NCBI GenBank assembly: GCA_944393365.1
Contig: CALXZZ010000001.1
Span: 1 to 62,017 of the forward strand
Length of the DNA: 62,017 nt
Direction: 5' to 3'
Source of the DNA: an uncultured Clostridia bacterium
GTDB taxonomy: Bacteria > Bacillota > Clostridia > TANB77 > CAG-508
Positions 27,482 through 27,588 of this stretch are shown here, piece after piece (position 1 is the stretch's first letter; every line of letters starts with the position of its first letter). The notes under the pieces were generated by a model. That model saw nothing but the letters and a program-made list of their open reading frames with translations, did no database searches and was not told the origin of the DNA. The position numbers and the translations under genes were made by a program.

Positions 27482-27588
27482 GATTAGGGGACGGTCCTAA
27501 AAATCCCTGTTTTTCCATGTAATACATTGTTATTAACATTATTTGTTATTGAAAAAGAGGGATTTTTAGGACCGTCCCCCTAATCCCT
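27482..27588. repeat. MITE-like pair of family 1 units: 27-bp inverted repeats flanking a 49-bp AT-rich spacer
   Basis: GATTAGGGGACGGTCCTAAAAATCCCT (27482-27508) and AGGGATTTTTAGGACCGTCCCCCTAATCCCT (27558-27588). The right unit contains the tadA stop. Confidence 0.85.

What the first reader, a model, noticed from the sequence alone, without database searches (positions are those of the whole stretch)
27482..27588. MITE-like element built from a GGGAC-core palindromic unit; at least ten units at six loci in 62 kb
The unit is about 30 bp: AGGGATT-TTTAGGACCGTCCCC-TAATCCCT. It is itself a hairpin, with AGGGAT/ATCCCT and TAGG/CCTA stems around an ACCGTCC loop. At this locus two units form 27-bp inverted repeats around a 49-bp AT-rich spacer between tadA and the next gene. 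Other copies are at 611-665, 3032-3085, 21363-21392 (single unit with a GGGACAGACC core) and 24249-24311. These GC-rich islands stand out against the AT-rich background. They resemble REP/PATE-type elements mobilised in trans by RAYT or IS200/IS605-type TnpA, but I do not recognise the sequence as a described family. No transposase is present in the window.
Basis: seen in the sequence. Interest (0 to 1): 0.6.

Follow-up and report, generated by a model that had tools for sequence, protein, structure and literature searches.

The report
GGGAC-tagged REP-like mobile repeats
The GC-rich hairpin repeats are real, genome-wide, recently mobile miniature elements of the REP/RAYT kind, found here in an uncultured gut Clostridia lineage where such repeat populations have not been described, but they work like a known class of element.

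Summary
The window holds 9 units at 5 loci, plus 2 loci of a sister subfamily. The 1.6-Mb genome holds about 170 units at about 85 loci.

The commonest form is a 56-nt direct doublet, not a single hairpin: AGGGATT-GGGGACGGTCCT-AAATCCCT-N6-AGGGATTT-GGGACGGACCT. It consists of two GGGAC boxes 36 nt apart around a hairpin. At least five subfamilies share this layout. GGGAC is invariant and the hairpin stems co-vary.

The genome's only Y1 (HUH) transposase gene is RAYT/TIRYT-like. It lies between inverted GGGAC doublets. In the genus, 45 of 60 genomes carry 1-5 such genes, almost all flanked this way. In the sister genome (about 95% identity), one paralogue carries AGGGATT-type flanks. In this genome that locus is rearranged and the gene is gone.

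About a fifth of comparable loci are present in one sister genome and absent in the other, and another third differ in architecture. Breakpoints recur at the junction between stem and box.

No Rfam family matches. There were no viral hits and only two metagenome hits.

The IS200 alternative is not.

Verdict: a new variant of a known kind, of moderate interest. The transposition chemistry is inferred, not shown.

The parts
27479..27508 (+). A-type unit(+): S (AGAGATT) - box (AGGGGACGGTCCT) - S' (AAAAATCCCT). It starts 4 nt from the ribosome-binding site of the downstream gene on the minus strand.
   Evidence: The sister genome G006 has only this single unit here, and G007 has none.
27509..27557 (.). 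49-nt AT-rich spacer, itself partly palindromic. It is unique in the genome.
   Evidence: No other copy in G000 or G006. Absent from G006.
27558..27588 (-). A-type unit(-), inverted relative to the first unit. It supplies the last two codons and the TAG stop of tadA (AGG GAT TAG, stop at 27580-27582).
   Evidence: Absent from G006 and G007.
610..665 (-). A-type direct doublet: S-box1-S'-loop-S-box2.
3032..3087 (+). A-type direct doublet. Its box2 is GGGACACTCC, the box2 type that flanks the A-like RAYT of G006.
21363..21392 (+). Single A-type unit with a GGGACAGACC box, directly next to a ribosome-binding site. Absent from G006, G007 and G017. G006 has AATCACT at the site.
24248..24311 (-). 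A-type direct doublet with an extra 5' S-like copy (CTGGATTAG). Shared with G006; absent from G007 and G017.
12268..12322 (-). Sister subfamily C doublet (GGGACGTGCC - GTTTCAAAATGAAAC hairpin - degenerate box2 TGGACAGACC).
34689..34745 (-). Sister subfamily C doublet (GGGACGTGCT ... GGGACAGACC, boxes 35 nt apart).

Best explanation
These are non-autonomous REP-like elements that belong to a family of RAYT/TIRYT-type Y1 (HUH) tyrosine transposases.

The module is a short hairpin (S'-loop-S) with an invariant GGGAC box on each side, 34-36 nt apart. Most subfamilies carry a further copy of S upstream of box1. Each transposase paralogue sits between two inverted copies of its own module. Miniature copies without the gene are scattered through intergenic DNA as single units, direct doublets, inverted pairs (like 27479-27588) and inverted pairs around cargo.

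Inferred mechanism, by analogy with TnpA-REP and IS200/IS605 TnpA (not shown here):
- The enzyme recognises the folded hairpin together with the GGGAC box on single-stranded DNA.
- It cuts at the junction between S and the box.
- It rejoins the strands, so modules are excised, inserted or copied without a fixed target duplication.

The element at 27479-27588 is a recent elaboration of a single unit into an inverted pair. It is co-transcribed between tadA and the next gene. There it would form a 110-nt RNA hairpin, which may affect mRNA stability; this was not tested.
For: 1. Copy number. There are 150 GGGAC..GGGAC doublets at spacings of 34-36 nt, where I estimate well under one by chance from the GGGAC counts. 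A-type units number 170 at about 85 loci.
2. Shared layout. Subfamilies A, B, C, D and E have an invariant GGGAC and different but complementary stems. 77% of doublets have a Watson-Crick hairpin of at least 5 bp between the boxes, against 6.7% of shuffles. At least 10 distinct stem sequences occur.
3. Transposase identity. Pfam Y1_Tnp 57 bits; NF047646 REP_Tyr_transpos 61 bits against IS200 18 bits; profile hit to 4ER8 only, aligned across the HUH and Y-x-x-N-P motifs.
4. Gene-repeat association. RAYT-like genes occur in 45 of 60 genomes of the genus, nearly all with '+ +' GGGAC boxes on one side and '- -' on the other. This also holds in other genera and families of the order. Flank type follows paralogue: D, E, A-like and C in G006.
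5. Recent mobility. Of 62 comparable A loci in G000, 31 are identical in G006 (about 95% nucleotide identity), 12 were scored absent (about 8 stand after inspection) and 19 differ. The reciprocal comparison gives 33, 12 and 19. The whole E-type RAYT with its flanks is cleanly absent from the orthologous G000 site.
6. Recurrent breakpoint. In at least 9 polymorphic loci the breakpoint lies at S|box, with S or an S-like heptamer left behind. In two loci exactly [box-S'-loop or cargo] is missing, leaving tandem S-S. Slippage between direct repeats cannot produce that.
7. Patchy distribution. A-type is found in 5 of 24 genus genomes and in 0 of 16 from other families of the order.
8. REP-like placement. 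Tandem 58, convergent 16, divergent 4.
Against: - No transposition chemistry was tested, and cleavage sites are inferred from allele comparisons only.
- The bulk A-type boxes (GGGACGGTCC / GGGACGGACC, 36-nt spacing) do not exactly match the flanks of any RAYT seen. The G006 A-like gene has GGGACGTTCT / GGGACACTC at 34 nt.
- G000 itself has no A-type RAYT, so its A elements may now be orphans.
- Some clean insertions carry 22-25-nt non-conserved tails or a 12-nt flank duplication, with no donor found. A simple IS608-like model does not explain this.
- Some polymorphisms can be explained by slippage between the 7-nt S or S' repeats without any enzyme.
- The transposase scores below the NCBIfam RAYT cut-off (61 against 80 bits).
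- Orientation bias relative to GC skew is modest for A (43:19) and absent for D and E.
Confidence: 0.8

Rival explanations
1. The elements are PATE-type derivatives of an IS200/IS605 insertion sequence, mobilised by a classical TnpA(IS200), perhaps with TnpB.
For: The chemistry class is the same (Y1 HUH; PF01797 hit). Hairpins lie next to short conserved motifs.
Against: The only Y1 gene scores 18 bits on the IS200 equivalog against 61 on the RAYT model. Its profile hits only TnpA-REP in the PDB. The gene is flanked by inverted copies, whereas IS200/IS605 ends are not inverted repeats (established knowledge). Each paralogue is single-copy per genome. I did not search for tnpB.
Confidence: 0.05
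2. The repeats are mainly host cis-acting RNA or DNA signals (operon-internal stabilisers, terminators or protein-binding sites). They are kept by selection and spread by recombination rather than by a transposase.
For: Placement after genes, with depletion from divergent promoters (58/16/4). Sense bias in tandem contexts (36:16). In 29 of 78 intergenic loci the repeat supplies a neighbour's stop codon. Strong hairpins.
Against: Both orientations occur. Insertion polymorphism between genomes 95% identical is abundant. Matching copies flank cognate transposase genes. Distribution within the genus is patchy. No Rfam family matches. A host function could still be secondary, as is argued for REPs.
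Confidence: 0.1
3. The variation between genomes comes from enzyme-independent replication slippage or hairpin-mediated deletion and duplication at palindromes. The RAYT association is historical only, and the elements are no longer mobile.
For: The change from composite to single unit, and from composite to inverted pair, can be written as deletions between 7-nt S or S' direct repeats at hairpin bases. G000 lacks three of the four RAYTs of G006.
Against: De novo copies sit at sites that are empty in G006 and in outgroups (21363; C15:3623; C59:6819; G006 C14:22814). The S-S footprints cannot arise by repeat slippage. The D-type RAYT is intact, with the HUH and Tyr motifs.
Confidence: 0.05

Closest known systems
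[quoted passage not shown] 2013, PMC3733652) = TnpA-REP subclass 2.1 (Quentin et al. 2018, PMC6006769)
   Same: The protein is RAYT-like, longer than E. coli RAYT (about 260 aa), and has a C-terminal extension with weak HTH signals. The gene lies between long inverted repeats that carry a GGGG[AT][CG]A[CG] motif; GGGGACAG fits exactly and GGGGACGG/GGGGACGT fit with one mismatch. The papers report moderately abundant dispersed copies of the TIRs in some species, arranged as dimers or clusters.
   Different: Here the flanks are REP-like hairpin modules with two direct GGGAC boxes, whereas Quentin et al. found no REP-like sequences next to subclass 2.1 genes. Four or more cognate gene-repeat pairs coexist in a genome of 1.4-1.6 Mb. 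The host is an uncultured Clostridia lineage; neither paper lists a Firmicutes repeat family. The C-terminal HTH could not be confirmed by Pfam.
REP/BIME with TnpA-REP (RAYT) of E. coli; REPIN-RAYT systems of Pseudomonas (Group 2 and 3 RAYTs)
   Same: A short hairpin plus a conserved unpaired tag. The gene is flanked by inverted copies (a REPtron). There are many extragenic copies, mostly after genes. Inverted pairs form long hairpins, and the locus at 27479-27588 is REPIN-shaped. Each paralogue has its own repeat family (PMC3733652; 10.1101/2021.07.10.451892).
   Different: The tag is GGGAC, not GTAG, and it occurs twice in direct orientation around the hairpin. The dominant form is a direct doublet, not an inverted pair. 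The gene-plus-flanks unit is itself present or absent between sister species, whereas REPIN-RAYT systems are described as vertically inherited. The literature states that only Group 2 and 3 RAYTs are tied to REPINs.
IS200/IS605 (IS608, ISDra2) and their PATE derivatives
   Same: Y1 HUH enzyme. Recognition of hairpins in single-stranded DNA. No regular target duplication. In many 'empty' alleles a short motif next to the junction is retained, much as IS608 keeps its TTAC target (the mechanism is from established knowledge).
   Different: The protein is not of IS200 type. The ends are inverted copies of one module. No multi-copy autonomous IS is present.
Other bacterial MITE-like repeats that reshape gene ends (Neisseria Correia elements, Rickettsia RPEs, pneumococcal RUP/BOX)
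   Same: Small palindromic insertions at gene ends. They can supply stop codons or terminal residues and are co-transcribed.
   Different: To my knowledge those elements are tied to DDE transposases or have no known enzyme, and they share no sequence or layout with the elements here.

Membership tests
REP elements associated with a RAYT (REPtron) | Short imperfect palindrome present in many extragenic copies | tested here: met
   170 A-type units at about 85 loci. 78 of 95 clusters are intergenic with both neighbours called. Hairpins are supported by covariation across subfamilies.
REP elements associated with a RAYT (REPtron) | Conserved unpaired GTAG (or CGTC) tag at one end of the hairpin | tested here: not met
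   The tag is GGGAC on both sides of the hairpin. GTAG is not conserved. The reverse complement of most boxes contains CGTC (seen directly in the sequence), but the layout differs from the published CGTC families.
REP elements associated with a RAYT (REPtron) | A RAYT gene flanked by inverted copies of the same repeat | tested here: met
   D subfamily in G000 itself. E, A-like and C subfamilies in G006. Most RAYT loci of the genus.
RAYT / TnpA-REP protein family | Y1 fold with HUH motif, catalytic Tyr in a Y-x-x-N-P context, and closer to TnpA-REP than to TnpA(IS200) | tested here: met
   PF01797 57 bits. NF047646 61 bits (below its 80-bit cut-off) against NF033573 18 bits. Invariant N59-H60-x-H62, Y119 and N123-P124. 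The only PDB hit is 4ER8.
TIRYT / TnpA-REP subclass 2.1 | Flanking inverted repeats that carry GGGGWSAS | tested here: met
   E-type flanks have GGGGACAG, an exact fit. D and A types have GGGGACGT/GGGGACGG, one mismatch. The motif is taken from PMC3733652.
TIRYT / TnpA-REP subclass 2.1 | C-terminal HTH (Bac_DnaA_C / HTH_23 / HTH_28-like) domain | tested here: inconclusive
   A C-terminal extension of about 120 aa is present. Only weak single-member hits to HTH_24, HTH_19 and Xre-like HTH were found, and none to the named families. No structure was predicted.
REPIN (REP doublet forming a hairpin) | Two inverted REPs separated by a short variable spacer, as the predominant replicating unit | tested here: not met
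   Inverted pairs exist (9 U>U< loci plus composites, including 27479-27588), but direct doublets predominate (41 of 85 loci).
IS200/IS605-derived PATE | Cognate TnpA(IS200) in the genome, with non-inverted LE and RE hairpin ends | tested here: not met
   No IS200-type gene: one PF01797 hit in the genome, and it is RAYT-like. The flanks are inverted.
Known non-coding RNA family (Rfam 15) | Match at or above the gathering score | tested here: not met
   The window at gathering threshold gives only a tRNA and SRP RNA. A permissive scan of 27380-27700 gives only generic miRNA-hairpin noise far below the cut-offs.

The most novel reading that the evidence does not exclude
Proposed reading: the GGGAC-hairpin-GGGAC module is the minimal substrate of a clade of Y1 transposases that so far has no known miniature partners (TIRYT / subclass 2.1).

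Under this reading the enzyme cuts precisely between the stem S and the GGGAC box. Integration is directed next to S-like heptamers (AGGGATT, AGTGATT, GGAT), so the target supplies one arm of the new hairpin. The four or five paralogue-module pairs in one small genome would then be a natural specificity code, with hairpin and box extension matched to the protein. In addition, the inverted pairs would act as landing pads or carriers for a second structured 150-nt element (X).
Probability: 0.25. Interest if true: 0.65.

Novelty: new variant of a known kind. Interest (0 to 1): 0.45.

Why it matters
REP/REPIN populations and their RAYT partners have been worked out almost entirely in Proteobacteria. 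The papers I read state that only Group 2 and 3 RAYTs have such partners, and that subclass 2.1 / TIRYT genes lack REP-like neighbours.

Here a small Gram-positive gut genome carries several cognate pairs with a shared invariant tag and co-varying hairpins, and a sister genome shows fresh insertions. This gives three things:
- A natural series for testing how Y1 enzymes read hairpin plus tag.
- A case where the elements rewrite gene ends: 29 neighbouring genes stop inside a repeat.
- A practical warning for MAG assembly and annotation in this lineage.

It does not reveal a new kind of system.

Tried and rejected
- **Rfam.** Gathering-threshold and permissive scans gave no family for the unit, the inverted pair or the cargo.
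- **Single-sequence PDB search of the transposase.** It found nothing relevant. A 7-member profile was needed.
- **Donor search.** I looked for a donor of the 49-nt spacer at 27509-27557 and of the non-conserved tails of two clean insertions. No second copy exists in G000 or G006, so 3' transduction could not be shown.
- **Universal target motif.** About 8 of 57 doublets are followed by AATCC-like sequence, but most are not. A simple 'inserts 5' of ATCC' rule is therefore rejected as general.
- **Replication-strand bias as a hallmark of single-strand transposition.** The bias is modest for A (43:19), absent for D and E, and confounded with gene orientation.
- **Automatic 'absent in other' calls.** Several were wrong (C30:12456 and C81:5975 are present in G006 with a different insertion next to them; some calls were false-positive units), so the counts were curated by eye.
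- **MAFFT alignment of subfamily representatives.** It was not structurally consistent. Covariation was measured with my own script instead.
- **Public collections.** Viral contigs gave 0 hits and metagenome contigs gave 2.
- **The look-up of sequencing runs was closed.** Read-level tests of excision and transcription could not be run.

Full report
**1. Observation**

The sequence is as described.
- Unit(+) lies at 27479-27508 (AGAGATTAGGGGACGGTCCTAAAAATCCCT).
- A 49-nt AT-rich spacer follows at 27509-27557.
- Unit(-) lies at 27558-27588.

The whole stretch is a long imperfect palindrome with 46-nt arms, 83% complementary. As single-stranded DNA it folds at -35.5 kcal/mol (z = -12.3, 0 of 200 shuffles).

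It fills the gap between tadA (27580-28038, minus strand) and the ribosome-binding site of the next gene. The last two codons and the TAG stop of tadA (AGG GAT TAG) belong to unit(-).

GGGACGGTCC with up to 1 mismatch occurs 7 times in the window against 0.07 expected.

**2. Anatomy**

The genome is 1.6 Mb in 130 contigs, 27.5% G+C, 91% complete. Its nearest named relatives are uncultured gut Clostridia MAGs.

Distances between same-strand GGGAC pentamers peak sharply at 34, 35 and 36 nt (62, 9 and 79 pairs). That gives 150 doublets.

In shorthand this is S-box1-S'-loop-S-box2.

A scan finds 170 full or half units at about 85 loci:
- 41 direct doublets
- 9 simple inverted pairs
- 8 single units
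- several composites

The window holds 9 units at 5 loci, plus two loci (12268-12322 and 34689-34745) of a sister subfamily.

**3. Subfamilies and structure**

At least five subfamilies share the layout but use other stems:
- D: TGGACA/TGTCCA, about 50 copies
- E: TGACCA/TGGTCA, about 25 copies
- C: GTTTCA/TGAAAC or TGAACA/TGTTCA, about 20 copies
- B: TTGCA/TGCAA

In an alignment of 12 representatives, only the two GGGAC pentamers, each with the G immediately 5' of it, are invariant.

Across 187 doublets, 77% have a perfect hairpin of at least 5 bp between the boxes, against 6.7% of shuffled controls. At least 10 different stem sequences occur. This is compensatory variation at the level of the family.

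**4. The enzyme**

The genome has one PF01797 gene (C72, 267 aa).
- It scores 61 bits on NCBIfam REP_Tyr_transpos (cut-off 80) and 18 bits on IS200.
- A profile of seven paralogues hits only E. coli TnpA-REP (4ER8, E = 2e-4) in the PDB. The alignment covers the HUH and Y-I-x-x-N-P-V-K motifs, which are invariant in the paralogues.
- The gene lies between inverted D-type doublets.

In the genus, 45 of 60 genomes have 1-5 such genes. Nearly every locus shows two GGGAC boxes on the + strand on one side and two on the - strand on the other. The same arrangement appears in other genera and families of the order.

The sister genome G006 aligns over 1.03 Mb at 94.8% identity. It has four paralogues, flanked by D, E, A-like (AGGGATTAGGGGACGTTCTTTTAATCCCTGCTAAAGGGATTAAGGGACACTC) and C modules respectively.

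G000 keeps only the D gene:
- The E gene with both flanks is cleanly missing at the orthologous site.
- The A-like locus is rearranged, leaving AGGGATTAG...AATCCCT.
- The C locus is replaced.

**5. Mobility**

A-type repeats are found in 5 of 24 genus genomes searched and in 0 of 16 from other families.

Between G000 and G006, 62 G000 loci could be compared:
- 31 are identical.
- 12 were scored absent (about 8 after inspection).
- 19 differ in architecture.

The reciprocal comparison gives 33, 12 and 19.

Window examples:
- 21363-21392 is absent from G006, G007 and G017.
- 24248-24311 is shared with G006 but absent from G007 and G017.
- At 27479-27588, G006 has one unit and G007 has none. The spacer plus the second unit (78 nt) is therefore new in G000 or lost in G006.

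All subfamilies show clean presence/absence.

Breakpoints recur at the S|box junction. The allele that lacks the element keeps S or an S-like heptamer in these cases:
- AATCACT at 21363
- ATCCTTC at C15:3623
- GGGATTA at C42
- CCTAATCCCT at C106
- AGGGATT(T)AG at C24, C75 and C34

At C20:17340 and C57:5484, exactly [box-S'-loop or cargo] is missing, leaving S-S. Other changes (composite to inverted pair, composite to single unit) can be written as deletions between S or S' direct repeats. Two clean insertions carry non-conserved tails of 22-25 nt, and no donor was found.

**6. Context**

- Of 95 tight clusters, 78 are intergenic with both neighbours called.
- Flanking genes are tandem in 58, convergent in 16 and divergent in 4. 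The genome-wide counts are 1033, 166 and 141.
- In tandem contexts, 36 elements are sense and 16 antisense.
- In 29 clusters a neighbour's stop codon lies inside the repeat, and 14 of those end AGG GAT TAG.
- Orientation relative to GC skew is biased for A (43:19) but not for D or E.

**7. Interpretation**

The elements work like REPs with RAYTs: a hairpin plus a tag, read on single-stranded DNA by a Y1 HUH enzyme whose gene sits between inverted copies. Recognition, cleavage at S|box and strand transfer are inferred from the family's established chemistry and from the allele comparisons. None of this was tested.

The closest published description is the TIRtron/TIRYT class, whose inverted repeats share GGGGWSAS (PMC3733652). 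This class was equated with TnpA-REP subclass 2.1, for which no REP-like neighbours were found (PMC6006769).

Neither those papers nor the REPIN literature lists a Firmicutes repeat population:
- Group 1 RAYTs are noted in Clostridia with low repeat counts.
- Only Group 2 and 3 RAYTs are said to have REPINs.

Hence my classification: a new variant of a known kind.

**8. Limits**

- The genomes are MAGs.
- The cognate gene for the bulk A boxes was not seen.
- The C-terminal HTH is unconfirmed.

Noticed in passing
window 19797-19948 (-); also G000 C20:17372-17575, C33:6483-6634, C22:18440-18591, C61:9690-9863, C34:3834-3996 and about 15 more: A second dispersed element ('X', about 150 nt, roughly 20 copies in G000 and 15 in G006). 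It has three invariant motifs: CTCGGCTAACATTACA, GGCACCTCTCAAAGCAAGTTTGAGATTCTCC and TTTCATTCGCATTCGAAA. Between them lie long stems that are copy-specific yet self-complementary. Every copy sits at the centre of a longer copy-specific palindrome, and in about half the copies the arms are inverted A-type units or doublets. At six loci X is present in one of G000/G006 and absent in the other, exactly between the inverted A units. No Rfam match.
   Followed up: partly
G000 C84:5078-5189, C114:1148-1246, C21:20826-20921; C85:2797-2911, C49:9366-9500, C2:9218-9428, C38:5918-6171; C87:6054-6175, C5:9933-10038, C35:6612-6844: Three further insertion-polymorphic small repeat families unrelated to A. 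The first is a roughly 100-nt element, CAGGGGACAC...GGAATGTCCCCTCCCC, abutting ribosome-binding sites. The second is a palindrome, CAATTGATTTCAAAAAAATTGGT-GGATATCCTTAAAAGGGGG-ACCAATTTTTTTGAAACAATTG. The third is ACGTAATCCCCATTCAAGAAAATGTAATTCAC...GGTCCCCACAATATAC.
   Followed up: no
G000 C39:8482-8540 versus G006 C3:3152-3186: At the same right junction (GACCT|ATAAAAAAGTGATATC), G000 carries an A-type doublet and G006 carries a C-type doublet, the left flank of its C-type RAYT. This is either reuse of the site or in-place exchange of the hairpin module between subfamilies that share box2 (GGGAC[AG]GACC).
   Followed up: partly
G000 C34:1-1300 versus G006 C11:10650-12050: The A-like RAYT locus of G006 is rearranged in G000. 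The gene is gone, the neighbouring small ferredoxin gene is inverted, about 960 nt of other sequence is inserted, and only AGGGATTAG...AATCCCT remain at the borders. This looks like inversion and deletion between the inverted flanks.
   Followed up: partly
L249 (G158, another family of the order) 1034-1172: A tandem array of four 33-nt GGGACGGAGGAAAATTCTCATTTTTGAGAATTA units lies next to a RAYT-like gene. The box-hairpin module can therefore be iterated head to tail.
   Followed up: no
A-type boxes genome-wide (GGGACGGTCC, GGGACGGACC): The boxes contain CGG. Earlier notes on this genome say that CGG is read with a +1 shift in coding regions. This could add selection against copies inside genes. 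It may also have split some ORFs in my simple gene calls.
   Followed up: no
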